64,000 bases of DNA from an uncultured Candidatus Saccharibacteria bacterium. GTDB lineage: Bacteria > Patescibacteriota > Minisyncoccia > Ryanbacterales > GWA2-47-10b. A program made the translations under genes and the position numbers. The first letter of the stretch is position 1. Each line of letters opens with the position of its first letter. Below are positions 4,153-44,236 of this stretch, piece by piece. A model generated the notes under the pieces. It did not search any database and was not told where the DNA came from. It was given only the letters and a program-made list of their open reading frames with translations. The stretch spans positions 146,200-210,199 of the forward strand of contig CAYHJF010000001.1 in the NCBI GenBank assembly GCA_964356915.1, written 5' to 3'.

Positions 4153-5219
4153 ACGATGTTGAGAGAAACAATATCACCGCCACGCAGTGCGAGACCAAAT
4201 GTAGTCGCATATCTCATAGTCTCGCGTGCCGTGATCGAAGGAATTTGTTTTTCAAGATTAAATATATTTTCCCAAATACGAGCTCGCTCAACTGGGATAC
4301 GAAGTTCTTGGGCGAGAAATTCTGGTAATCCATGCAGCAGGGCATCGCCTCCACATAAATACACGCGAGAAACCGGATCACGCTCCGGATATCGTCTCTC
4401 CCAAAAACCAATCTGGCGATCGGCCTCATCTTTCAGCGCAACGAGCGCGGGCGTCAGGCTCTTGATAATATCTTCGGACATTGCATCAAAACCTCTTCCA
4501 AACTTTACCTCTTTAGCCTGCTCGGGTGTTAGTTGAAGTGCGTTCATTAAAATCGCATCAATATCGCGCCCGCCAACTTTCACCGTAGAGGTAAAGTTCA
4601 CGGTACCCTCCGAGACAATAGAAAATGTCGTTCGCGTCTTACCAAGATCACCGACTAAAAAAACACCTTTGGTATTTCTTGGTACAACCGCGCGCGCGAT
4701 CGCCTGCGACTCAAGCTCGAAAACAAGCGGGAGAAAACCTGCTTTTTGGACTGCGTTCATATATGACTCGACTGTCGCTTTTGGATAGGCAGTGACAACA
4801 ACGTCCATTGTAGGACGACTACGCTCAGCGAGATCGAGGACTTGATAGTCAAAATACAAATCTGCTGGAGGGAATGGAATATGCTCTTCAAGCTGAAACT
4901 CAAGAGCTTGGCGTAACTCACCCAAAGGAATGCGCTGCGTGCGGATAAGTCGTAAAAATCCCTTTTCTTCAGGCAAAGATAAAATAAGATACGGGTCTCG
5001 AAGCTTTTTCTTTCCTCCAAAATTTTGAATGCGCTTTAATGCTTCACCAAGAGCAACTTCATCTTTGATCTCACCGGCATCAATAATACCTTTGGCGAGA
5101 GGTTCCTCTCCAAAAAATGTAACGTCTTGTTCATCCTTATGCTTATCAAGACGCAAATATTTAAATGATTCGTCAGAGATATCGAGGCCTATGACTGAAA
5201 ACAAAAACGGGTTTGCCAT
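4149..5219 (-). CDS. pilM: type IV pilus assembly protein PilM (actin-like ATPase fold)
   Basis: N-terminal IGLDISDESFKYLRL (actin/HSP70-like phosphate-1 motif as in PilM/FtsA), 356 aa, followed by pilN/pilO. Confidence 0.7.
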   Translation of the reverse strand: MANPFLFSVIGLDISDESFKYLRLDKHKDEQDVTFFGEEPLAKGIIDAGEIKDEVALGEALKRIQNFGGKKKLRDPYLILSLPEEKGFLRLIRTQRIPLGELRQALEFQLEEHIPFPPADLYFDYQVLDLAERSRPTMDVVVTAYPKATVESYMNAVQKAGFLPLVFELESQAIARAVVPRNTKGVFLVGDLGKTRTTFSIVSEGTVNFTSTVKVGGRDIDAILMNALQLTPEQAKEVKFGRGFDAMSEDIIKSLTPALVALKDEADRQIGFWERRYPERDPVSRVYLCGGDALLHGLPEFLAQELRIPVERARIWENIFNLEKQIPSITARETMRYATTFGLALRGGDIVSLNIV

Positions 5220-26216: not shown

Positions 26217-26217
26217 T

Positions 26218-27894
26218 CTAGTTGCAACCAAGTCCTTCATCGGTTGCACCATCACAATCATTGTCGAGGTGATCGCAACCAAACAAAGATTCGGGCTGAG
26301 ACGCAATGTCTGGGTTACAGAACAAGTAATGAGTAGGATTTGATGTAACACACACCGCATGTCCAACCGCACACTGACCAAGTTGGCCAGTATTGCAGGT
26401 CTGTCCACCTTGAGGATTCCCCTCGTCGACGGAGCCGTCACAATCATTGTCGATATTGTCACAAAGTTCGCTCGCTGCTTGCGCGGGGATGCACGCACCC
26501 CATGCGTTATTCGAGCACGTCTGTGTGCCGTTACGACATGCGCCAACAGCGCCGGAAGCGGTACACGCCCGTTGCTGACCGTTGCTACATACGAGCAACG
26601 TAGTCGACGTTGTCGTACTCGTCGAAGTCGTAGTCGATGACGTGCTCGAAGTTGTTGAAGTCGAGGTAGTCGTCGATGACGATGTCGTTGAGGTTGACGT
26701 AGTTGAAGTGGTTGTACTAGTCGAGGTCGACGTTGTCGTAGGCCTTGATGTACTCGTCGTGGTCGATGTAGACGTTGTAGACGTGGATGTAGTCGTCGTA
26801 CTTGTGGTGGTAGTTGTTGAAGTCGTACTCACCCTAGTAGTTGACGTTGTCGTACTCGTCGAAGTCGTAGTCGATGACGTGCTCGAAGTTGTTGAAGTCG
26901 AGGTAGTCGTCGATGACGATGTCGTTGAGGTTGACGTAGCGATAACTCCACGACACACATTCGGATACGACTTAAACTGCGGTACCGCAAGGATATCCGT
27001 GCAGTCAATCTTGAAATCAGCAACGCACTGAACGCACGTTGCCATATCGAGCATCCCGCCAATAGAGCGGGCGCAAATCTGACCATTTGGTCGTACTACA
27101 TCGGTACAAGTTGAAATGAATCCAACTTGTACGGGCGTAAAGTCGGTCGGATCTTCAGGAAATCCGCAGCGACGATCAGCGCCGCCACACGCCTGACAAA
27201 TCTTCTCGAGCATACGCTCTCGTTGAACTGCAACTAAACGGTCGGCTGCTCCATCGCCAGGCAAATGACAGTCAGTACTATGTGTACCGGCAATACGATT
27301 TGTCCAGCATGTTGAGAGCACTTTCGCCTTCTTACGTTGAAAGGCAACGGCATACTTGAGATTCGCACGCTGACACTTGAGTACTGCGGCCGTAGGATTT
27401 GGCTGCAATGCGTCAGCATAAAGATCGACTGACTGATCAACTGCGATCTTCCCAATACAGGAAAGGCAGTGGTATACGTCATCAAAATTGTTAATGGAGT
27501 TATCACAGCCCCTGTTTTCGAAATCAGGACACTGACTCCCCCACCCAATATCACTAGGCGCGACATCATTAACCCCATCACAATCGCCATCGCAGCACTG
27601 CGATCGAATATTGCGATGAAGACGAATATCACGCCTTGCGAGCCGACGCGATTGAGCCGGATCTGTCACACAGTCGATTCCCCAAGGCAGATAACCCCTG
27701 AGCCTCTTATCCTCGCATGACAGCTGATCGCGAAGACGACCATCTACATATGCGGCAAAACCCTTACTAAGGGTAGTTTGACACGTATTCATATTGGAAG
27801 CGGATACTGGCGCAGCAAATATCGACGCCGAGAGAAAAACAAACAATGCGATTGCTCGCATGAGACTCCTTCCATTTCTTGCCCTAAATTTCAA
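26218..27894 (-). CDS. secreted Cys-rich protein with a roughly 150-aa mucin-like Ser/Thr low-complexity region
   Basis: Signal peptide (MRAIALFVFLSASIFAAPVSA). Cys-rich N- and C-terminal domains (CxxxxC, DNDCDG repeats). Central TSTSTTSSSTTT... tract encoded by tandemly repeated DNA. Confidence 0.55.
   Translation of the reverse strand: MKFRARNGRSLMRAIALFVFLSASIFAAPVSASNMNTCQTTLSKGFAAYVDGRLRDQLSCEDKRLRGYLPWGIDCVTDPAQSRRLARRDIRLHRNIRSQCCDGDCDGVNDVAPSDIGWGSQCPDFENRGCDNSINNFDDVYHCLSCIGKIAVDQSVDLYADALQPNPTAAVLKCQRANLKYAVAFQRKKAKVLSTCWTNRIAGTHSTDCHLPGDGAADRLVAVQRERMLEKICQACGGADRRCGFPEDPTDFTPVQVGFISTCTDVVRPNGQICARSIGGMLDMATCVQCVADFKIDCTDILAVPQFKSYPNVCRGVIATSTSTTSSSTTTSTSTTSSTSSTTTSTSTTTSTTRVSTTSTTTTTSTTTTSTSTTSTSTTTSTSRPTTTSTSTSTTTSTTSTSTTSSSTTTSTSTTSSTSSTTTSTSTTTSTTLLVCSNGQQRACTASGAVGACRNGTQTCSNNAWGACIPAQAASELCDNIDNDCDGSVDEGNPQGGQTCNTGQLGQCAVGHAVCVTSNPTHYLFCNPDIASQPESLFGCDHLDNDCDGATDEGLGCN
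26596..26940. repeat. tandem DNA repeat (unit about 242 bp, two copies with roughly 100-bp exact identity) inside the S/T-rich coding region
   Basis: gtcgtactcgtcgaagtcgtagtcgatgacgtgctcgaagttgttgaagtcgaggtagtcgtcgatgacgatgtcgttgaggttgacgtag occurs at 26609-26700 and again at 26849-26940. Confidence 0.7.
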
Positions 27895-36754: not shown

Positions 36755-38164
36755 TCATCGAGGTAACCCTCGACTCACGTCTTTTTTGATAAAGAGCACG
36801 TAACCATCCGAGGCAACGCCCACGACCGAAAGATCGATTTTGGCGCCACGCTCCATCCATTCGTCCTCGAGCGGGTAATGGTAAAACCCTGAGTAGATGG
36901 TTCGTCCATCGACATCCCAGACCGTGAGGTGTAAAGATGTCGGTTCACGACCATCAAGGGTTATGATTTTCCACTGAGTCCGCGTAAATGAAACGTCGAG
37001 CTCGCGCAACGGCTCCTCGAGACGAAATACGTACCGCACGATGGAGCCAACTTCCGCCACATCGACAGCTTGATGATACACATCAAGGCTTGCGAGTGAC
37101 ACAGATGCTGGAGCTCGATATGGAACATCCGGCTTCCAAAGAGGATCTTTCATCATGATGACGTATAGAACGGCAATCACCATGAGTGCTCCGACGACGA
37201 ATCGACGAAATCCTGAAGATCTTACGAGAGCCGTCATGATAATGACGACGATGAGTACCGTGAATACAATTATATATGGCACATCACCGACCTCACTAAG
37301 GCGCTGCCTCATTCTTTCAATGAACGGACGTGGATCGCCGAGATCTAAGTCCGGCATCGTTGGGAATGAAATGTGAGGCATTGCTGGCAACGAAACACTT
37401 GGAAGAGAAATATGAGGAAGCTCTGTAGGAAGATAGCTCGTCGGGTCCTTATACCCGTATTTCGCGCGAATATCTCGCTCCATTTGTGGAAGCTTCTCGA
37501 GAATCTGTATTTGCTCTGGCGAGAGCGACTTTATCTTTGCCGTCTCACGCAATGCCTTACCAATCGCTCGGAGAGGATCAAGCTCGCGCTCCATTTGAGC
37601 ATGCTTAACCTCAAGAACAACATCATCGGTAAACATTCCACCGAAAAGCCCGCATGACTTTACGATGAAGAGCATCCCAATGATTACGGAAAGTGCGATC
37701 ATCCAGCGTCGCGCGGGATGCGTTTCCCACTCACGCGGAAGACTGAGCCCCCACGCAACAAGAAACATCAAAACCGCAAGCACAAGCCAGAGTGGGCTGT
37801 AGTTATGCCACGCCCACGGCAACAATTGCCATGCGCCAACAGTCACAAGAATAATCGCGCCCGCAAGAATAATTCCGTTTCTGCGAGGAGCAATTGTCGC
37901 CCATGCAGCCCCGAACGCTCCTCCAATACGCGACCGTATTGATACACGCGGAGTTGAAACAATAACCGGAGCTGGCACTGGCATTACTGCCGGCGTAGAC
38001 GCAATACTAGATGCTCGTGAAGACGGCTGCTGACCACGATTTGATACCGTGAGATCCCATAGCCGCACAACAATCGCACCACCAACAACAAGTACAGCAA
38101 TTACTGTAAAGAAAATCTCCATTACGGAGTCCCTCCACTCGTAGGCGTCCCGCCACTCTTCCAA
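36755..38164 (-). CDS. polytopic membrane protein, hypothetical (469 aa)
   Basis: Multiple TM helices, Pro-rich linker, C-terminal soluble domain. No motif recognised. Confidence 0.4.
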   Translation of the reverse strand: MEEWRDAYEWRDSVMEIFFTVIAVLVVGGAIVVRLWDLTVSNRGQQPSSRASSIASTPAVMPVPAPVIVSTPRVSIRSRIGGAFGAAWATIAPRRNGIILAGAIILVTVGAWQLLPWAWHNYSPLWLVLAVLMFLVAWGLSLPREWETHPARRWMIALSVIIGMLFIVKSCGLFGGMFTDDVVLEVKHAQMERELDPLRAIGKALRETAKIKSLSPEQIQILEKLPQMERDIRAKYGYKDPTSYLPTELPHISLPSVSLPAMPHISFPTMPDLDLGDPRPFIERMRQRLSEVGDVPYIIVFTVLIVVIIMTALVRSSGFRRFVVGALMVIAVLYVIMMKDPLWKPDVPYRAPASVSLASLDVYHQAVDVAEVGSIVRYVFRLEEPLRELDVSFTRTQWKIITLDGREPTSLHLTVWDVDGRTIYSGFYHYPLEDEWMERGAKIDLSVVGVASDGYVLFIKKDVSRGLPR

Positions 38165-39624
38165 CGCTTCATCATACCTCCGATAAGACTGGTAACCCGC
38201 CCAATTGCGGCCGACACTTTCGATTTCTTGGGATCCTTCTTCTTAACCGTCTCGAACACTTTCGTCGCTTGAGCGGTAAGAGCGCCGATACTAAGAGGTC
38301 CGCCACCATCTCCCGAGTTAATGACGACAGCAACATTACCTTCCTTGATCGCGTCCATTTGACGCTCGAGGAGGCCCAGCGTTGCAGCCTGCTCAGGAGA
38401 AAGACCAGCACCATCTCGAATCTTGGTAATCCGAGCGGCTTCACCTTCGCCCTCAAGTTCGCGGCGTACTTTTTCGGCAGCACCGAGTCGTTCGATACCA
38501 CGTCCTTCGCCGTCAGCCTCGAGGAAACGAGCGTCGCCCGTTGCCCGCCCTTGGATGCGCTTGCGTCGCGCTTCTTCGGTTGCCTTACTAAGCACAACGT
38601 CAACGATCATGAAGCGCTTCAGTTTGATACCCCACTCATTGAGTTGAGCCTCTACTGAAGCGCAGATCTGCGAGTTAAGTGAACTTTCTTTTTCTTTCTT
38701 ACCATCGTCCTTGTTATCAATAATTTTCGCCACCTTCTCAGCAAGCACATCATCAACGTTCATGCCACCGAGCATTGTACGAATACGATCCTCGATCATT
38801 GAGAGAACGGCATGGATATAATCATCGACAAGATATGTAGCCTCAAAAGCTGATTTCTGATCGCGACGGTACTCGACCTCAATGATCAATTCACACTTGA
38901 GACCAACCGTATCATCAGCGACATCAACCTGACTCCGGAACTCAACTTTCGAATCCTTTCCGTCACGCCTGAGCTCTCTTTGAAGTGCGATCTCTTCTTC
39001 TGTTGTCCCTTCGGGGAAACCAAGAAGCCACAATGTCAATTTGCGATCTCCGATATAGAGCCGCTTCTTTACGTAGAAGATTCCAGGGATAATGAGATAG
39101 AATCCCTGTGGAAGAGTCTTGCAATAGATACCAAAGAGCTCAACCACATCAACGTATTGTTGAGGAATGATACGTGCACATCCATAGAAAAAAACAGCGA
39201 AAACGATAGCAGGCCATACTTTTGCCGCGCCCGAGAGAAAAAATACTCCCGCGATCGCAAACAAAAATAAAATACCCACTATGGTAAATGAAAAACGCAT
39301 CCAAATCTTCGGCAGAAAACCAAAACCCTGATCCTCTGTATCCAGAAGAGTGGGATTTTTTTTGTGACGATGCCACATGTAGAACCCGCCAAAAGCAAAT
39401 ACCAATGCTGTCACTTCGAACAAGAAGAATGGTGAATATGAATCTTTCACCCACCATGCAAGAAATACAGCTATACCCATAAGAAGACCATCGATAATAA
39501 TCTGCCAACGTTTCATAGATGCCTTTGCACCCACAAGAAGACCATCGACAATCATATGCCAACGTTTCATAGATGCCTTTGCACCCACAAGAAGACCATC
39601 GACAATCATATGCCAACGTTTCAT
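38122..39624 (-). CDS. SPFH/band-7 (flotillin-like) membrane protein with tandemly repeated N-terminus
   Basis: Two TM helices. SPFH core (YVDVVELFGIYCKTLPQGFYLIIPG...). C-terminal coiled-coil E/A/R-rich flotillin-like tail. Three in-frame MKRW(H/Q)(M/I)I(V/I)DGLL starts; the likely true start is the third (about 39516). Confidence 0.55.
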   Translation of the reverse strand: MKRWHMIVDGLLVGAKASMKRWHMIVDGLLVGAKASMKRWQIIIDGLLMGIAVFLAWWVKDSYSPFFLFEVTALVFAFGGFYMWHRHKKNPTLLDTEDQGFGFLPKIWMRFSFTIVGILFLFAIAGVFFLSGAAKVWPAIVFAVFFYGCARIIPQQYVDVVELFGIYCKTLPQGFYLIIPGIFYVKKRLYIGDRKLTLWLLGFPEGTTEEEIALQRELRRDGKDSKVEFRSQVDVADDTVGLKCELIIEVEYRRDQKSAFEATYLVDDYIHAVLSMIEDRIRTMLGGMNVDDVLAEKVAKIIDNKDDGKKEKESSLNSQICASVEAQLNEWGIKLKRFMIVDVVLSKATEEARRKRIQGRATGDARFLEADGEGRGIERLGAAEKVRRELEGEGEAARITKIRDGAGLSPEQAATLGLLERQMDAIKEGNVAVVINSGDGGGPLSIGALTAQATKVFETVKKKDPKKSKVSAAIGRVTSLIGGMMKRWKSGGTPTSGGTP

Positions 39625-39650
39625 AGACGCCTTTCTTGCCCTTTATCACG
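39490..39650. repeat. three tandem copies of a 54-bp repeat covering the SPFH gene start and RBS region
   Basis: ccaacgtttcatagatgcctttgcacccacaagaagaccatcgacaatcatatg unit. Period exactly 54 (copies anchored at 39505, 39559, 39613). The third copy is diverged (gacgcctttcttgccc). Confidence 0.7.
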
Positions 39651-39727
39651 TCAAAGAGCTTTGCACTACTATATAAGGCTTTTTCTTATTTGTCAAGGTC
39701 TTTTCTGGCGCCTTCACGAAGAAAGGA

Positions 39728-39756
39728 TTGACAAATAGGATAAATAATGCTAATAT
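39728..39756 (+). promoter_or_regulatory. near-consensus sigma-70 promoter (TTGACA - 17 nt - TAATAT) driving the GC-rich non-coding region
   Basis: TTGACA at 39728-39733, 17-nt spacer, TAATAT at 39751-39756. Confidence 0.55.
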
Positions 39757-39764
39757 ATTTATCG

Positions 39765-40306
39765 AGAGCAAGGACTGCCCAAATTCTTATATAAATTAAA
39801 TAATCTTGGGCTCTTTCCTTGCTCCATCATGAAACCTAATAAACACAGAAATTGGGTTGCGCGATGGAGCTGGGGGAATATACTAGCTCTAGACTTGGTG
39901 AGGGGACTCGAGCCTCTCCCAAGGTGGGGGTCTACTATGGTCAGCGAGTGGTCTCGTCGAGCAGCGCGAGGACATGCGCGCTTCGACTCAGCGATCGTCC
40001 AGAAGCGCGAACGCGTCACTGAACGAATCGCACCCACAACCAGCGGACAGCTCGCTGGAGCGCACCCGGGGCAGACTGCCAAAACGGCTGCCACCACCAC
40101 ACACAAGCGTCCTCCTCAGTAGGACGCCCCTCCACGCCCGGCCTTCAGGGGGCCGAATCATCAGTCGGAGAAACCCGACCGAATAGAGGCGCTCACCCGG
40201 CGCCCAAAAGCAGATCGATACACTGTACAAAGTATCGGCGGAAGAGTGCCCCGCCAAGGCATTCAAAAAAAAGGGGGACCTGCGCAAGCGGGCCCCCATT
40301 TTTCTT
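39765..40306 (+). ncRNA. candidate large structured ncRNA (about 520 nt, GC-rich, unidentified) with its own promoter and terminator
   Basis: No protein-like ORF on either strand. Sharp GC rise. At least 8 perfect local hairpins (gctccatc/gatggagc, gcgtcct-cctcagt-aggacgc, ggcgc-tcacccg-gcgcc, cgatac-actgtacaaa-gtatcg and others). Upstream consensus promoter, terminal terminator. Confidence 0.4.
40272..40306. terminator. bidirectional GC-clamp terminator (ends the ncRNA candidate on plus and xer on minus)
   Basis: aaaaaaaa-ggggg-acctgcgcaagcgggc-ccccc-attttt. Confidence 0.6.
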
Positions 40307-40326
40307 TGTAAAAAATTTTTGAAAAA

Positions 40327-41202
40327 CTACTTTCTTCTACGTCCGTGAAATGCCTTGTGCACATCTCGTAACTGCCGATCGGTTACGTGCGTATAAATTT
40401 GTGTCGTCGTAATCGATGAGTGCCCCAACAGTGCCTGTACCGATCGAAGATCCGCGCCATTGATAAGTAAGTCAGTCGCAAACATATGACGCAGCGTATG
40501 AGGTGTTACCTTTGACCCAATACCAGCAGCAATCGCATATCTATGTACAAGACGCTCAATTTGCCGAACTGTAAGGCGAGTTGGTTTTTTTCCTGTAGCA
40601 ACAAATAATGCCTCTAAAATATCTTCTCGGCGAGCAAAATAATCTTTCAAAATCTGCTTTGCTTCAGAAGAAAGAAAAACAAGGCGCACCTTTCCACCTT
40701 TCCCGCGAACAGAAAATTCATCTCGTTTGAGATCGATGGAATCTTGATTAAGGGCAACGAGTTCAGAGATTCGAAGACCCGTAGAAAACAAAAGCTCTAA
40801 AATCGCACGGTCTCGCAACCCCTGCAACGTCGATGTTTTTGGCGTAGCAAGTAATCGTTCAAGATCTTCAATGCGCGGGATATCAATGTCTCGATCCTGA
40901 AGTTTTGCAAGTTCTATTCGATCGGGTGCAAGTGATACTATCTCTCGGCGTACAAGATATTTTAGAAATTGCCTCAACGCGATGAGATGATAATTACGCG
41001 TACGAACAGAAAGATGCTCTCGATTGAGCCACAATCGAAAAGCGCGTATATGATCATCATTAATATCGGCAGGGGATTCTATCTGCTCCCGCAAAAAAAA
41101 TCGTTCGAGGTAATGACGATAATTTTCAATCGTTTTTTGAGACCTTCCGCGCCCAAGCTCGAGGTCTTCAAGAAACTCTCGGAGAGCAATCTTAATATTC
41201 AT
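40327..41202 (-). CDS. xerC: tyrosine site-specific recombinase, XerC/XerD family
   Basis: N-terminal SAM-like core-binding domain. Catalytic R...HxxR...Y (GLRISEL, HTLRHMFAT, LGHSSITTTQIYTHV). 291 aa. Confidence 0.8.
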   Translation of the reverse strand: MNIKIALREFLEDLELGRGRSQKTIENYRHYLERFFLREQIESPADINDDHIRAFRLWLNREHLSVRTRNYHLIALRQFLKYLVRREIVSLAPDRIELAKLQDRDIDIPRIEDLERLLATPKTSTLQGLRDRAILELLFSTGLRISELVALNQDSIDLKRDEFSVRGKGGKVRLVFLSSEAKQILKDYFARREDILEALFVATGKKPTRLTVRQIERLVHRYAIAAGIGSKVTPHTLRHMFATDLLINGADLRSVQALLGHSSITTTQIYTHVTDRQLRDVHKAFHGRRRK

Positions 41203-41292
41203 AGATATTTATAGGCAATGTCGCACAATATTAGTGTACCTGAGCGGGGGCTTGATTTAAATAGAAAAGTCGTATATAATGGCGTTCATATT

Positions 41293-41559
41293 ATGTTGTC
41301 GACAAAAACTAAAACAAAGGTGATCGGAAAACACCAGATCCATGAAAAAGACACGGGTTCTTCAGCCGTGCAAATCGCCCTGCTTTCAGAGCGTATTGAT
41401 TCGCTCGCAGAGCATCTCAAAAAGTATAAAAAAGACAACCACTCTCGTCGTGGTCTCTTGAAGATGGTTGCAAAACGTAAATCTCTTCTCGAATACTTAG
41501 CGTCAGGTGACCAAAAAGTATTGTTGGATCTTCGGAAGAAATTCGGTCTCAAAAAATAA
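41293..41559 (+). CDS. rpsO: 30S ribosomal protein uS15
   Basis: DTGSSAVQIALLSERIDSLAEHLKKYKKDNHSRRGLLKMVAKRKSLLEYL is the full S15 signature. Start set at the internal Met (MLSTKTK...) to give the usual 88 aa. Confidence 0.85.
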   Translation: MLSTKTKTKVIGKHQIHEKDTGSSAVQIALLSERIDSLAEHLKKYKKDNHSRRGLLKMVAKRKSLLEYLASGDQKVLLDLRKKFGLKK

Positions 41560-42096
41560 ATGAGCGATCTTAAACACAAAGACCAGCGCGTCGCTGTATT
41601 CATCGATGCGCAGAATCTTTATCATTCAGCACGTAGTCTGTTTGGCGCCCGAGTCAATTTTAAAGAAGTTCTCAAGATAGCGGTCAGCGGGCGCAAACTC
41701 ATTCGAGCATTTGGATACGTGATTAGTACAAAAACGGGAGAGGAGCAACCATTTTTTGAATCTCTCACGAGCCTCGGCATCGAAACACGAGCAAAAGAAC
41801 TCCAAGAATTTTTCGGTGGCGCAAAAAAAGCCGACTGGGATGTTGGTCTTGCTATCGACGCGGTTCGTACCGCGGAGATTGTCGATACCGTCATCATCTG
41901 TTCCGGAGATGGGGACTTTGTACCACTCGTTGAGTATTTAAAAAATAATGGAAGACGGGTAGAAGTCATCGCATTTGGCCGCAGCTCATCACTCAAACTT
42001 AAAGAAGCGGCTGATGACTTTACCGATCTTGGTGCATCACAGAAATTTTTGATGCGCATTCACCGCAATACTAGGAAGACTGAAAACGATGCTTGA
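41560..42096 (+). CDS. NYN-domain (LabA/DUF88-like PIN-fold) putative ribonuclease
   Basis: VAVFIDAQNLY ... DVGLAIDAV ... VIICSGDGDFVPLVEYLKNNGRRVEVIAF, the acidic-residue pattern of NYN domains. Inserted between rpsO and pnp. Confidence 0.6.
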   Translation: MSDLKHKDQRVAVFIDAQNLYHSARSLFGARVNFKEVLKIAVSGRKLIRAFGYVISTKTGEEQPFFESLTSLGIETRAKELQEFFGGAKKADWDVGLAIDAVRTAEIVDTVIICSGDGDFVPLVEYLKNNGRRVEVIAFGRSSSLKLKEAADDFTDLGASQKFLMRIHRNTRKTENDA

Positions 42097-44236
42097 ACGC
42101 ACAAAATTTGAAACTACTGTCGCTGGTAAAAAAATAATTGTTGAATTTAATCCGATCGCCTCGCAGGCAAACGGTTCTGTTATGGTTCGTATGGGGGATA
42201 CCATCATTTTAGGCACGGCCGTCATGTCAAAAAATGCCCGCGAATCAATTGATTTTTTCCCACTCGTCGTTGATTACGAGGAAAAATATTACGCGGCCGG
42301 ACGAATCTTGGGATCTCGCTTCGTACGTAGAGAGGGACGCCCTTCTGAAGAAGCCGTTCTTATCTCGCGTCTCATTGACCGTACGATCCGTCCTCTTTTC
42401 GATCATCGTATTCGTAACGATGTACAGGTTGTTCTCATGGCACTTTCAGTTGACGAAGAAAACAGTCCTGATATCCCCGCAATTATGGCGGCATCACTCG
42501 CACTCGGTACATCAAATATTCCATGGGATGGGCCGGTAGCAGGAGCGCGCATTGCTCATATCGATGGAAATTTTGTCGTAAACCCAACTGATACAGAACG
42601 AGCGCTCTCAGAGATGGACCTTATCATCGCGGGAGGACATGGTCACATCAACATGATCGAAGGCAAAGCAAAAGAAATTCCTGAAGAACGCATACTTCAA
42701 GCTTTCGAAACCGCACTCAAAGAAATCGACCAACTCTCAAAGTTTCAAGAAGAGATTATTTCAAAAATCGGAAAAGAAAAATCTATACCAAAAATTGAAG
42801 AAGTTCCAGCAGAAGCTCACGACTCTCTTCAAAAACATTTTCGTACACGAATTGGCGATGCAATGTATACGCTTGGCAAAAAAGAACGCGAGCATGCGCT
42901 CTCAGATCTAAAATTTGAGTGGATGGAATCAATAAAAGAACGTTGCCCTGAACTCTCAAAGGGTATGGCGTCTTTACTCTTTGAAGAGACAATTGATGAA
43001 ACTGTTCATGAAAGAATATTAACAAAAGGAGAGCGCCCCGATGGACGCCACGTAAAAGAAGTTCGCCCACTACTTGCAGAAACAAGTCTTCTCCCGCGCG
43101 CACATGGATCCGGACTTTTTTTTCGCGGAGATACTCATATTCTATCGACCGTAACACTTGGAGCGCCGGGGGATGAGTTGCTGATCGAAGGCATGGATGT
43201 ACGAACAAAGAAACATTTCATTCATCACTATAACTTTCCTCCATTTTCAGTAGGAGAAACTGGACGCATGGGGTCTCCTGGACGGCGCGAGATCGGTCAC
43301 GGAGCTCTTGCAGAAAAAGCTCTTGAAGCAATTATTCCTCCAAAAGAAGTGTTCCCTTATACAATTCGTATCGTCTCCGAAACACTCTCATCAAATGGAT
43401 CGTCTTCGATGGGATCAGTTTGCGCATCTCTTTTAGCACTTATGGATGCAGGTGTACCGATTAAAAAACCGGTCGCGGGAATCGCGATGGGTCTCATGAT
43501 GGAAAGTGACACAAACTATAAAGTGCTTACTGACCTCCAAGGACCTGAGGATCATCATGGCGACATGGATTTTAAGGCCGCTGGAACAAAAGATGGTCTT
43601 ACTGCGATTCAAATGGATGTAAAGGTAAAAGGCGTAACGTTGGGGATTCTCAAAGATGCACTCGCAGATGCAAAAGATGCTCGCATGAAAATCATGAGCG
43701 TACTCTTAGAATGTATTGGTGAATCACGCAAAACACTCTCTCCCTATGCGCCTCGTATCATTCAAATGCAAATCCCAATTGATAAAATTCGCGACGTCAT
43801 TGGCCCAGGCGGTAAAACAATCAACGAGATTATTGCCGAAACTGGAGCTCAAATCGATATCGAACAAACCGGCGATATCTATATTACCGGTATGACTCAA
43901 GAAGCAGCCGAAAAGGCACAAGAACGAATCGCCCTCATTACAAAAGAAATTGAAGTTGGAACTATTTATAAGGGCAAGGTAACGCGCATCTTTGAATTTG
44001 GCGCGATGGTTGAAGTCGCTCCAAAACAAGAAGGTCTTGTTCATATCTCTGAACTTGCTCATCAGCGAGTTAACAAGGTTAGCGATGTCGTACAAGTCGG
44101 CGATGAAGTAACCGTACAAGTTACGCAAATTGATAGTCTTGGACGCATCAATCTCTCTATCAAAGCACTCACGGAAAAACCCGATGGTATGCCTGATGAG
44201 GAAAATCACAAACCTCGTCCGCAACACCGACGCTAA
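42089..44236 (+). CDS. pnp: polyribonucleotide nucleotidyltransferase (PNPase)
   Basis: Two RNase PH domains, KH (IGPGGKTINEII) and S1 (GTIYKGKVTRIFEFGAMVEV) domains. 715 aa. Confidence 0.9.
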   Translation: MLERTKFETTVAGKKIIVEFNPIASQANGSVMVRMGDTIILGTAVMSKNARESIDFFPLVVDYEEKYYAAGRILGSRFVRREGRPSEEAVLISRLIDRTIRPLFDHRIRNDVQVVLMALSVDEENSPDIPAIMAASLALGTSNIPWDGPVAGARIAHIDGNFVVNPTDTERALSEMDLIIAGGHGHINMIEGKAKEIPEERILQAFETALKEIDQLSKFQEEIISKIGKEKSIPKIEEVPAEAHDSLQKHFRTRIGDAMYTLGKKEREHALSDLKFEWMESIKERCPELSKGMASLLFEETIDETVHERILTKGERPDGRHVKEVRPLLAETSLLPRAHGSGLFFRGDTHILSTVTLGAPGDELLIEGMDVRTKKHFIHHYNFPPFSVGETGRMGSPGRREIGHGALAEKALEAIIPPKEVFPYTIRIVSETLSSNGSSSMGSVCASLLALMDAGVPIKKPVAGIAMGLMMESDTNYKVLTDLQGPEDHHGDMDFKAAGTKDGLTAIQMDVKVKGVTLGILKDALADAKDARMKIMSVLLECIGESRKTLSPYAPRIIQMQIPIDKIRDVIGPGGKTINEIIAETGAQIDIEQTGDIYITGMTQEAAEKAQERIALITKEIEVGTIYKGKVTRIFEFGAMVEVAPKQEGLVHISELAHQRVNKVSDVVQVGDEVTVQVTQIDSLGRINLSIKALTEKPDGMPDEENHKPRPQHRR

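What the first reader, a model, noticed from the sequence alone, without database searches (positions are those of the whole stretch)
38122..39650. Three 54-bp tandem repeats creating three alternative in-frame starts for the SPFH/flotillin-like gene
The repeat unit encodes MKRWHMIVDGLLVGAKAS. Two perfect copies plus a diverged third (which begins the TM helix) precede the SPFH core, and each copy carries its own ATG. Copy-number change by slipped-strand pairing would lengthen or shorten the N-terminus or shift which start is used. This is a plausible contingency locus, or the scar of a recent duplication.
Basis: seen in the sequence. Interest (0 to 1): 0.5.

Follow-up and report, generated by a model that had tools for sequence, protein, structure and literature searches.

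The report
Variable 54-bp repeat at gene start
The first 54 bases of a membrane-scaffold (SPFH) gene in an uncultured groundwater Patescibacterium, ribosome-binding site and start codon included, are tandemly duplicated, and independent assemblies of the same population carry two or three copies; this is an ordinary unstable minisatellite caught varying, with no evidence that it acts as a switch.

Summary
On the minus strand, a 54-bp unit is present three times head to tail (39475..39636), in frame, at the 5' end of a 500-aa SPFH/Band 7 gene (38122..39624). In true register the unit is 12 nt of 5'-UTR (with the SD-like AAAGG) plus ATG and 13 further codons, so each copy carries its own RBS-like motif and ATG.

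Five orthologues in syntenic loci have one canonical SD, one start and no repeat. Their N-termini align with copy 3, so ATG 39516 is the ancestral start.

The history has two steps. The outer units are only 47/54 identical (old duplication). The middle unit is exactly the hybrid expected from out-of-register exchange between them (recent).

Copy number differs among assemblies of one well, sampled in one campaign: replicates R1 and R3 have 2 copies; R2 and the window have 3. Everything else is identical, with 0 differences in 22,148 bp against R3. Collapse by the assembler cannot be fully excluded without reads.

Changes are always in frame, and the extra units are too polar to span the membrane, so nothing supports ON/OFF switching. 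Best reading: a near-neutral VNTR. New member of a known kind; modest interest.

The parts
39583..39636 (-). Repeat unit U1, promoter-proximal: AGAAAGGCGTCT + ATG (39624..39622) + 13 codons of the A-type body. The SD-like AAAGG lies at 39634..39630.
39529..39582 (-). Repeat unit U2, middle: a C-type 12-nt head (GCAAAGGCATCT), then ATG (39570..39568) and the A-type body. It is absent from the 2-copy allele. It is the exact hybrid expected from out-of-register exchange between U1 and U3.
39475..39528 (-). Repeat unit U3, gene-proximal: GCAAAGGCATCT + ATG (39516..39514) + the C-type body, which continues into TM helix 1. It corresponds to the ancestral start of the gene.
38122..39624 (-). SPFH/Band 7 membrane-scaffold gene. 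It encodes 500 aa from ATG1, 482 aa from ATG2 and 464 aa from ATG3. Four hydrophobic segments (residues ~41-59, 65-84, 111-130, 136-154 in 500-aa numbering) are followed by the SPFH domain (152-373) and a helical C-terminus.
39668..39696 (-). Sigma-70-like promoter TTGACA-17-TATAGT (11 of 12 matches). It would give a leader of about 37-43 nt before ATG1. This is a prediction only.
36755..38122 (-). Downstream partner gene: 455 aa, membrane protein, no Pfam or NCBIfam match. Its ATG overlaps the SPFH stop codon (TAATG). The pairing is conserved in the orthologous loci.

Best explanation
This is a lineage-specific minisatellite (VNTR) made by two successive tandem duplications of the translation-initiation region of an SPFH gene. 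It is now unstable in copy number within a natural population and has little or no functional consequence.

Step 1 (old, inferred): a 54-bp segment was duplicated in frame. It comprised the last 12 nt of the 5'-UTR with the Shine-Dalgarno remnant, the ATG, and 13 codons of TM helix 1. The former UTR now encodes the linker A-K-A-S. The upstream copy then diverged to 47/54 identity.

Step 2 (recent, reconstructed exactly): slipped-strand mispairing or unequal exchange occurred within the shared 17-nt TCTATGAAACGTTGGCA of the two old units. It added a third unit and created a 125-nt perfectly periodic tract, which is expected to expand and contract readily.

Both 2-copy and 3-copy alleles are seen in replicate assemblies of the same aquifer population. 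Translation can in principle start at any of the three SD+ATG sites. All of them read into the same frame, giving proteins of 464, 482 or 500 aa that differ only by an 18- or 36-residue N-terminal extension. That extension is positively charged, probably cytoplasmic, and lies ahead of the ancestral TM helix. Shown here: the anatomy, the absence from orthologues, the copy-number difference between assemblies, and the exchange reconstruction. Inferred: slippage as the mechanism, near-neutrality, and cytoplasmic location of the extension. Unknown: which start is used.
For: Array and register.

Orthologues: they lie in conserved synteny (PNPase-NYN-S15 / xerC-like / SPFH / partner). All have a single start behind a canonical SD (AAAGGAGGG, GAAAGGAGA, AAAAGGAGGA and similar). 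None has a tandem repeat at the 5' end. Those that begin with a TM helix (P0004, P0009, P0012) align with copy 3. No relative above 50% identity exists among 1.84 billion representatives.

Two-step history: U1/U3 are 47/54 identical, U1/U2 51/54, and the A-type bodies 42/42. Simulated out-of-register exchange with a breakpoint at unit offsets 9-26 reproduces the 3-copy allele exactly.

Polymorphism: R1 contig has 2 copies, R3 contig (= GenBank JBBTQU010000006.1) has 2, and the R2 contig and the window have 3. Apart from the 54-bp indel there are 0 differences in 22,148 bp against R3, 0/6,652 against R2 and 0/10,717 against a Logan contig. The three replicates came from the same well and sampling campaign (January 2019), were sequenced 2x150, and were each assembled separately with metaSPAdes v3.13 (PMC8672522). 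The 3-copy allele has unique k-mers at every k of 21 or more, so it needs real reads. Logan k=31 contigs of run ERR3858121 break exactly where a read set containing 3 copies would branch.

Likely tolerance: units 1-2 reach a hydropathy of at most 0.7. AF2 models residues 2-62 as one helix continuing TM1, with low to moderate confidence.

Precedent: copy-number variation of promoter tandem repeats at 1e-2 to 1e-3 per chromosome in isogenic M. tuberculosis (PMC12817950).
Against: No reads were available. For k of 72 or less, the k-mers of the 2-copy allele are a subset of those of the 3-copy allele. The 2-copy contigs have low coverage (4x and 8x) and could therefore be a loop skipped by the assembler rather than a real allele. 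At k=55, 3 and 4 copies are indistinguishable, so '3' may be a lower bound. Near-neutrality is argued from the sequence only. The 2-copy state has apparently persisted long enough to accumulate 7 substitutions, which could also mean that the extension is useful. All 4 substitutions in the 42-nt body are non-synonymous but conservative, which is uninformative at this sample size.
Confidence: 0.62

Rival explanations
1. The array is a fixed duplication with no real polymorphism. The population carries only the allele with 3 or more copies, and the 2-copy contigs from R1 and R3 are assembler collapses of a de Bruijn loop. The array would still be a lineage-specific tandem duplication, but not demonstrably unstable.
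For: At metaSPAdes k values (21, 33, 55) every k-mer of the 2-copy allele also occurs in the 3-copy allele. Coverage is only 4-8x (contig names). A k=31 assembly breaks at the array. Tandem repeats are a known source of assembly error (PMC6868369, listed).
Against: Two independent replicate assemblies made with the same software both traverse the array with 2 copies and long flanks. In a pure 3-copy read set the loop-back edge would have full coverage, and no read would thread entry-unit-exit directly. With 150-nt reads the 71-nt periodic tract of the 2-copy allele is easily spanned. This last argument is reasoning only; no assembler was run here.
Confidence: 0.2
2. The array is an adaptive contingency locus or translational rheostat. 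Copy number is selected to vary because each unit adds an SD+AUG, or lengthens the juxtamembrane helix of each protomer of the SPFH assembly. That would generate subpopulations with different dosage or scaffold properties.
For: Each unit carries an SD-like motif and an ATG. The array is the only variable site in 22 kb. The 2-copy state appears old yet is retained without stops or frameshifts. Tandem repeats of similar unit size at the 5' ends of M. tuberculosis genes are proposed to be phase-variable.
Against: The change is always in frame, so there is no ON/OFF switching. The repeated peptide is not predicted to be exposed. None of five orthologues has anything similar. Only one such array exists in the 64 kb. 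In the predicted mRNA fold the internal AUGs sit in the 3' arm of a 10-bp hairpin formed with the preceding unit, which would not favour extra initiation (weak evidence). No expression data exist.
Confidence: 0.12
3. The repeats act at the DNA or RNA level, for example as iterated binding sites for a regulator or as a structured leader. Under this reading only ATG3 is used, and the upstream units are simply an extended 5'-UTR.
For: The 222-nt 5' region folds better than shuffles (z = -3.5), with the same two hairpins in each unit. ATG3 is the ancestral start.
Against: The z-score is inflated because the same hairpins are counted in each repeated unit. The units contain no stop codon and stay in frame with identical SD-like context, so nothing prevents initiation upstream. 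No such element exists in the orthologues, and there is no match to any Rfam family.
Confidence: 0.06

Closest known systems
Bacterial VNTR/minisatellite loci at gene 5' ends, e.g. Mycobacterium tuberculosis promoter tandem repeats and MIRU-VNTRs
   Same: Units of tens of base pairs, head to tail, at the 5' end of a gene. Copy number differs between otherwise isogenic genomes. Slipped-strand mispairing or unequal recombination is the accepted mechanism (PMC12817950). That MIRU units are about 50-bp class and can overlap start and stop codons is from my own knowledge.
   Different: Here the unit is not a dispersed family; it occurs only at this locus in the window. It lies downstream of the predicted promoter and spans SD, ATG and 13 further codons, so it changes the N-terminus or the choice of start rather than promoter architecture. 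The organism is an uncultured Patescibacterium.
Classical contingency loci (simple-sequence-repeat phase variation in Neisseria, Haemophilus, Campylobacter)
   Same: A repeat tract in or near the start of a gene whose length changes by slippage, producing heterogeneity within a population.
   Different: Contingency loci use 1-8-nt units, whose changes shift the frame or promoter spacing and switch surface determinants ON and OFF (own knowledge, summarised in PMC12817950). Here the unit is 54 nt, always in frame, in a probably cytoplasmic N-terminal tail, and no switch is possible.
Perfect in-frame tandem repeats creating amino-acid repeats (aaTRs), e.g. in Borg elements
   Same: Recently formed, near-perfect repeats with a unit divisible by 3. 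They arise independently, are absent from homologues, and are explained by replication slippage (PMC9879509).
   Different: Borg aaTRs are pervasive across the genome, are depleted in ATG, and encode disordered, often extracellular regions. This is a single locus whose unit contains the start codon and half of a hydrophobic helix.
SPFH/Band 7 scaffolds such as E. coli QmcA (PDB 8z5g), HflK/C and flotillins
   Same: Pfam Band_7 above threshold. Best solved relative is QmcA, E 7e-8. N-terminal membrane anchor followed by the SPFH domain and a helical C-terminus. Operon with a membrane-protein partner.
   Different: Four predicted hydrophobic segments instead of one. The partner has no NfeD or any other Pfam domain. 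No NCBIfam assignment. The family is restricted to a small Patescibacteria clade, with only 10 representatives at E<=1e-10.

Membership tests
VNTR / minisatellite generated by slippage or unequal exchange | Head-to-tail direct repeats of a unit of 10 bp or more with high identity | tested here: met
   54 bp x 3.0 copies, 95% matches, no indels; units 51/54, 50/54 and 47/54 identical
VNTR / minisatellite generated by slippage or unequal exchange | Copy number differs between otherwise near-identical genomes | tested here: met
   2 copies in the R1 and R3 contigs, 3 in the R2 contig and the window. There are 0 other differences in 22,148 bp. Caveat: this is assembly-level evidence; reads were not available.
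VNTR / minisatellite generated by slippage or unequal exchange | The new allele is explicable by one out-of-register event between existing units | tested here: met
   Simulated exchange between U1 and U3 at offsets 9-26 gives the observed 3-copy allele exactly
Contingency (phase-variable) locus | A change in repeat number reversibly switches expression ON/OFF, by frameshift or promoter spacing | tested here: not met
   The unit is 54 nt, i.e. 18 codons, and every allele stays in frame. The array lies downstream of the predicted -10 box.
Contingency (phase-variable) locus | The variable part is a surface-exposed or host-interaction determinant | tested here: inconclusive
   Units 1-2 are too polar to span the membrane (19-residue hydropathy at most 0.7) and begin with K/R, so they are probably cytoplasmic. 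AF2 gives a helix continuing TM1 with pLDDT 54-72. No topology predictor or experiment was available.
Contingency (phase-variable) locus | Mutation rate at the tract far above background, with a phenotypic consequence | not testable with these tools
   The only available facts are that this is the only variable site in 22 kb and that there are no rate or phenotype data.
Dispersed repeat family (MIRU/REP-like) | The same unit is present at several loci of the genome | tested here: not met
   The 42-nt body with up to 3 mismatches matches only the two copies at this locus in 64 kb. The rest of the genome was not available.
SPFH / Band 7 protein family | SPFH domain above the Pfam gathering score | tested here: met
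   PF01145, 51.1 bits against a cut-off of 23.6, residues 152-373; QmcA 8z5g, E 6.7e-8
SPFH / Band 7 protein family | NfeD-type partner in the operon, as in QmcA-YbbJ and YqiK-YqiJ | tested here: not met
   The downstream 455-aa partner has no Pfam or NCBIfam hit
SPFH / Band 7 protein family | Assembly into a large membrane-attached ring or cage | not testable with these tools
   A monomer model only, mean pLDDT 60.5

The most novel reading that the evidence does not exclude
The array is a 'translation-start VNTR' used as a population-level rheostat by an ultrasmall bacterium with few regulators. Each gain or loss of a unit would add or remove one SD+AUG and one 18-residue juxtamembrane helical segment on every protomer of an SPFH cage. 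That would tune scaffold dosage or geometry at high frequency without ever inactivating the gene.
Probability: 0.1. Interest if true: 0.55.

Novelty: new member of a known kind. Interest (0 to 1): 0.3.

Why it matters
If the 2/3-copy difference is real, this is a clean natural example of minisatellite instability caught inside one uncultured Patescibacteria population. It would be the only variable site in 22 kb or more. It also shows how a 5'-UTR can be recruited into coding sequence: AGAAAGGCGTCT became the linker A-K-A-S. Practically, the array makes gene callers disagree on the start (482, 477 and 495 aa for one gene). It breaks or alters short-read assemblies at this point, so it warns against reading such differences between MAGs as strain differences. 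It does not open a new biological question unless copy number turns out to affect expression.

Tried and rejected
1. Close relatives that could date the duplication. The search for homologous proteins returned only the protein itself. Two genome-contig scans found nothing, then one distant Elusimicrobia hit. The metagenome-contig scan found only the R1 contig and one distant locus. The full HMMER scan found no representative between 46% and 100% identity.

2. Exact look-ups of the 500-aa and 495-aa products found no record.

3. NCBIfam gave no family for either the SPFH protein or its partner.

4. Internal promoter or terminator inside the units. No promoter-like site was found. The two 'terminator-like' hits inside units 1-2 are weak G-U-rich stems without a proper T-run, at a frequency within the shuffle expectation. 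Rejected.

5. Dispersed repeat or mobile-element origin. Rejected, because the unit is unique to this locus.

6. Cleavable signal peptide. The unit MKR + WHMIVDGLLVG + AKA|S superficially resembles an n-h-c signal peptide with an AxA site. I consider this unlikely: there is an Asp in a short h-region, and a positively charged MKRW follows immediately. No signal-peptide predictor was available, so this is untested.

7. Start-site choice from SD strength. It cannot be decided. All three ATGs share the same 4-nt AAGG context. This genome uses SD weakly, with only 15 of 49 long ORFs having an SD match of 4 nt or more.

8. dN/dS-type argument on the diverged unit. There are 4 non-synonymous and 0 synonymous changes in 42 nt, which is too few to interpret.
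Full report
**1. What is in the sequence**

The feature lies on the minus strand. Tandem Repeats Finder reports a single array at 39475..39634: period 54, 3.0 copies, 95% matches, no indels, score 285. In the whole 64-kb window the next-best array scores 89.

The ORF 38122..39624 (-) encodes 500 aa. It matches Pfam Band_7/SPFH at residues 152-373 (E 2e-13, 51 bits against a cut-off of 23.6). Its best solved relative is E. coli QmcA (8z5g, E 7e-8).

Read in ATG register, copies 1 and 2 are 54/54 identical and encode MKRWHMIVDGLLVGAKAS. Copy 3 (MKRWQIIIDGLLMGIAVF) is 38/42 identical over its first 42 nt and then runs into the first transmembrane helix. The 42-nt body occurs nowhere else in the window, and none is expected by chance.

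Two refinements matter:
- The true register of the repeat begins 12 nt upstream of each ATG. The units are U1 = AGAAAGGCGTCT+body, U2 = GCAAAGGCATCT+body, U3 = GCAAAGGCATCT+body. What was duplicated is the end of the 5'-UTR with its SD-like AAAGG, the ATG and 13 further codons. The linker A-K-A-S is former UTR.
- The first 49 codons contain six in-frame ATGs, not three.

**2. Context**

A sigma-70-like promoter (TTGACA-17-TATAGT, 11 of 12 matches) lies at 39696..39668 (-), giving a leader of roughly 40 nt. This is a prediction only.

The SPFH stop codon overlaps the ATG of a 455-aa membrane protein with no Pfam or NCBIfam match. Upstream, after a 680-bp gap, lies a xerC-like recombinase gene.

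The source is a groundwater Patescibacteria MAG. The identical protein is GenBank MEK7643163.1, 'MAG: SPFH domain-containing protein [Patescibacteria group bacterium]'.

**3. Ancestral state**

A full HMMER scan of 1.84 billion representatives found 77 relatives. None lies between 46% and 100% identity.

I retrieved the loci of five relatives: P0004, P0005, P0006, P0007 and P0012.
- Three of these loci (L007, L010, L012) show the same neighbourhood: PNPase-NYN-S15, divergent xerC-like gene, SPFH gene, partner membrane protein. They are therefore orthologues.
- In all five, the gene has one start preceded by a canonical SD 5-9 nt upstream (AAAGGAGGG, AAAGGAAGGAGAG, GAAAGGAGA, AAAAGGAGGA and similar). 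None has a tandem repeat at the 5' end.
- In the protein alignment, the N-termini of P0004, P0009 and P0012 (M-x-x-W followed by a hydrophobic helix) align with copy 3.

So the array is specific to the window's lineage, and ATG 39516 corresponds to the ancestral start.

**4. History**

Pairwise identities are U1/U3 47/54, U1/U2 51/54 and U2/U3 50/54. The 42-nt bodies of U1 and U2 are identical.

U2 is a hybrid: it has the 12-nt head of U3 and the body of U1. I simulated an out-of-register exchange between U1 and U3 of a 2-copy allele. Any breakpoint at unit offsets 9-26, the shared TCTATGAAACGTTGGCA, gives exactly the observed 3-copy sequence.

The history therefore has two steps:
- An old duplication, with 7 substitutions accumulated between its units. 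By contrast, co-occurring genomes show none in 22 kb.
- A very recent gain of a third unit by slippage or unequal exchange.

The 3-copy allele contains a 125-nt perfectly periodic tract, against 71 nt in the 2-copy allele. From general knowledge of RecA-independent repeat instability, this should make it more unstable.

**5. Copy-number polymorphism**

The exact-protein look-ups returned independent assemblies of the same organism (copy numbers):

| Assembly | Record | Copies |
|---|---|---|
| R3 | ERZ1292624 Hain_H41_01um_R3_165, 109,418 bp, cov 8 (identical to GenBank JBBTQU010000006.1) | 2 |
| R1 | ERZ1292625 Hain_H41_01um_R1_33687, cov 4 | 2 |
| R2 | ERZ1292619 Hain_H41_01um_R2_9460, cov 4 | 3 |
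| Window | its product matches P0003, from a 284,758-bp NCBI contig | 3 |

According to the source paper, these are triplicate 0.1-um filters from well H41 of the Hainich Critical Zone Exploratory, sampled in January 2019. They were sequenced 2x150 and each assembled separately with metaSPAdes v3.13 (PMC8672522).

After one unit is removed, differences from the window are few or none:
- 0 in 22,148 bp against the R3 contig.
- 0 in 6,652 bp against R2 and 0 in 10,717 bp against a Logan contig.
- 2 in 7,927 bp against one R1 contig.
- 3 in the other R1 contig (L002), all within 35 nt of its end.

The repeat is thus the only difference seen between the window and the R2 and R3 assemblies.

**6. 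How far the polymorphism can be trusted**

The 3-copy allele has private k-mers at every k of 21 or more: the junction GGCATCT|ATGAAACGTTGGCAT. It cannot be assembled from 2-copy reads.

The Logan (k=31) contigs of run ERR3858121 end at window 39598 and restart at 39532. These are exactly the positions where a k=31 de Bruijn graph of a read set containing 3 copies branches. A pure 2-copy read set gives an unbroken unitig.

The 2-copy allele has no private k-mer for k of 72 or less, so at metaSPAdes' k=55 it is a sub-path of the 3-copy graph. At k=55, 3 and 4 copies are also indistinguishable. The 2-copy contigs could in principle be a skipped loop, and '3' may be a lower bound.

I consider real heterogeneity more likely. 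Two independent replicates traverse the array with 2 copies. A pure 3-copy sample would give the loop edge full coverage. This is reasoning, not a test; read mapping would settle it.

**7. Consequences for the protein**

Kyte-Doolittle averages over 19 residues never exceed 0.7 across units 1-2. They reach 1.9, 1.6, 2.6 and 1.7 for four hydrophobic segments at about residues 41-59, 65-84, 111-130 and 136-154.

With K/R at each unit start and HRHKK after the second segment, the positive-inside rule places the N-terminus, the loop and the SPFH domain in the cytoplasm (inference). Extra units would then only lengthen a cytoplasmic, positively charged tail. AlphaFold2 with a shallow alignment models residues 2-62 as one continuous helix (pLDDT 54-72, mean 60.5), so it offers only weak support.

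All three ATGs share the same weak SD-like context. SD use in this genome is weak: only 15 of 49 long ORFs have an SD match of 4 nt or more, and many genes look leaderless. In the predicted mRNA fold, each internal AUG sits in the 3' arm of a 10-bp, G-U-rich hairpin formed with the end of the preceding unit. That might disfavour internal initiation, but the evidence is weak. Start usage is undetermined. Annotation pipelines already give 482, 477 and 495 aa for the same gene.

**8. Interpretation**

The best-supported reading is an ordinary, lineage-specific minisatellite spanning the translation start. It was formed in two steps and now varies between 2 and 3 copies in one population, with little functional effect (confidence about 0.6).

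The label 'contingency locus' is not earned, for four reasons:
- Changes are always in frame.
- There is no exposed epitope.
- No relative has such an array.
- No phenotype is known.

What remains open:
- The 2-copy contigs may be collapses (about 0.2).
- Copy number may tune initiation or scaffold properties (about 0.1).
- The units may act only as an extended leader (about 0.06).

**9. Comparison with known systems**

Mechanistically this matches bacterial VNTRs such as the M. tuberculosis promoter tandem repeats. Those vary at 1e-2 to 1e-3 per chromosome in isogenic cultures (PMC12817950). It also matches recently formed in-frame perfect repeats such as Borg aaTRs (PMC9879509).

It differs in three respects. 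It is a single, non-dispersed locus. It includes the SD and ATG. It sits in a half-helix of a membrane anchor. It fails the defining ON/OFF criterion of classical contingency loci.

Novelty: new member of a known kind. Interest: 0.3.

**10. Dead ends**

Searches for closer relatives gave nothing useful, nor did exact look-ups of the 495- and 500-aa products or NCBIfam. Rfam found only the window's eight tRNA genes at gathering score and no credible match in the intergenic regions searched. A literature search on Patescibacteria ncRNAs also led nowhere.

**11. Side observation**

The 680-bp gap next to the gene holds what looks like an unclassified, conserved, structured RNA of about 540 nt. 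Details are under 'noticed in passing'.

Noticed in passing
window 39763..40310 (+); homologous regions L007 2294..2868 (-) and L008 1..650 (-): Candidate unclassified structured ncRNA of about 540 nt between the SPFH gene and the xerC-like gene. GC is 0.61-0.65 against about 0.42 around it. It has its own TG-extended promoter TTGACA-17-TAATAT at 39728..39756 and a strong intrinsic terminator GGGGGACC..GGGCCCCC plus a T-run at 40274..40310. The fold z-score is -5.7, and -4.8 for the L007 counterpart. The promoter, the 'ATCGAGAG' 5' end, the 5' hairpin (with C-G to U-G and A-U to G-U changes that fit this strand) and the terminator are conserved in L007, where the neighbouring protein is only 46% identical. 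No Rfam family matches at gathering score or at E<=1, and there is no tmRNA. It is absent from the more distant orthologous loci L010 and L012, where the gap is 228 and 141 nt. GenBank annotates a 97-aa hypothetical protein here (39829..40122 +) that is not conserved. Only three divergent copies were available, so no covariation test was possible.
   Followed up: partly
window 39680..39744: The -35 regions of the two divergent promoters, for the SPFH gene and for the ncRNA candidate, form a 17-nt inverted repeat (TTTTTCTTATTTGTCAA / TTGACAAATAGGATAAA, 88% complementary, 31 nt apart). It may be a shared operator or simply two similar promoters back to back.
   Followed up: no
whole window, e.g. 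upstream of the ATGs at 5219(-), 13594(-), 20893(-), 36489(-), 41202(-), 61462(+): Roughly 10 of 49 long ORFs have a TATAAT-like box ending only 7-13 nt before the ATG and no SD. This suggests frequent leaderless or near-leaderless mRNAs in this Patescibacterium. Only 15 of 49 have an SD match of 4 nt or more.
   Followed up: no
window 36755..39624 (-) with 40327..44236; loci L007, L010, L012: The gene order PNPase-NYN-S15 / xerC-like / SPFH / membrane partner without any domain hit is conserved across Patescibacteria whose SPFH proteins are only 32-46% identical. The partner (455 aa here; 284-365 aa elsewhere) is translationally coupled (TAATG) and matches nothing in Pfam or NCBIfam. It may be a lineage-specific functional analogue of NfeD.
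   Followed up: partly
window 26621..26697 and 26858..26934, inside ORF 26217..27861 (-): Two arrays of a 39-bp unit with the same consensus lie 237 bp apart, and a 21-bp array lies between them. This suggests a larger internal repeat in a 547-aa protein.
   Followed up: no
L012 3925..3998: The orthologous SPFH gene of another Patescibacterium carries a 33-bp x 2.2 in-frame repeat (82% matches) in its C-terminal helical region, AEGDRDSAILR-like. This is a different place in the gene from the array studied here.
   Followed up: no
L014 (ends at window 39598) and L018 (starts at window 39532): k=31 Logan contigs of run ERR3858121 break exactly at the repeat. The array fragments short-k assemblies and truncates the gene call there.
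   Followed up: yes
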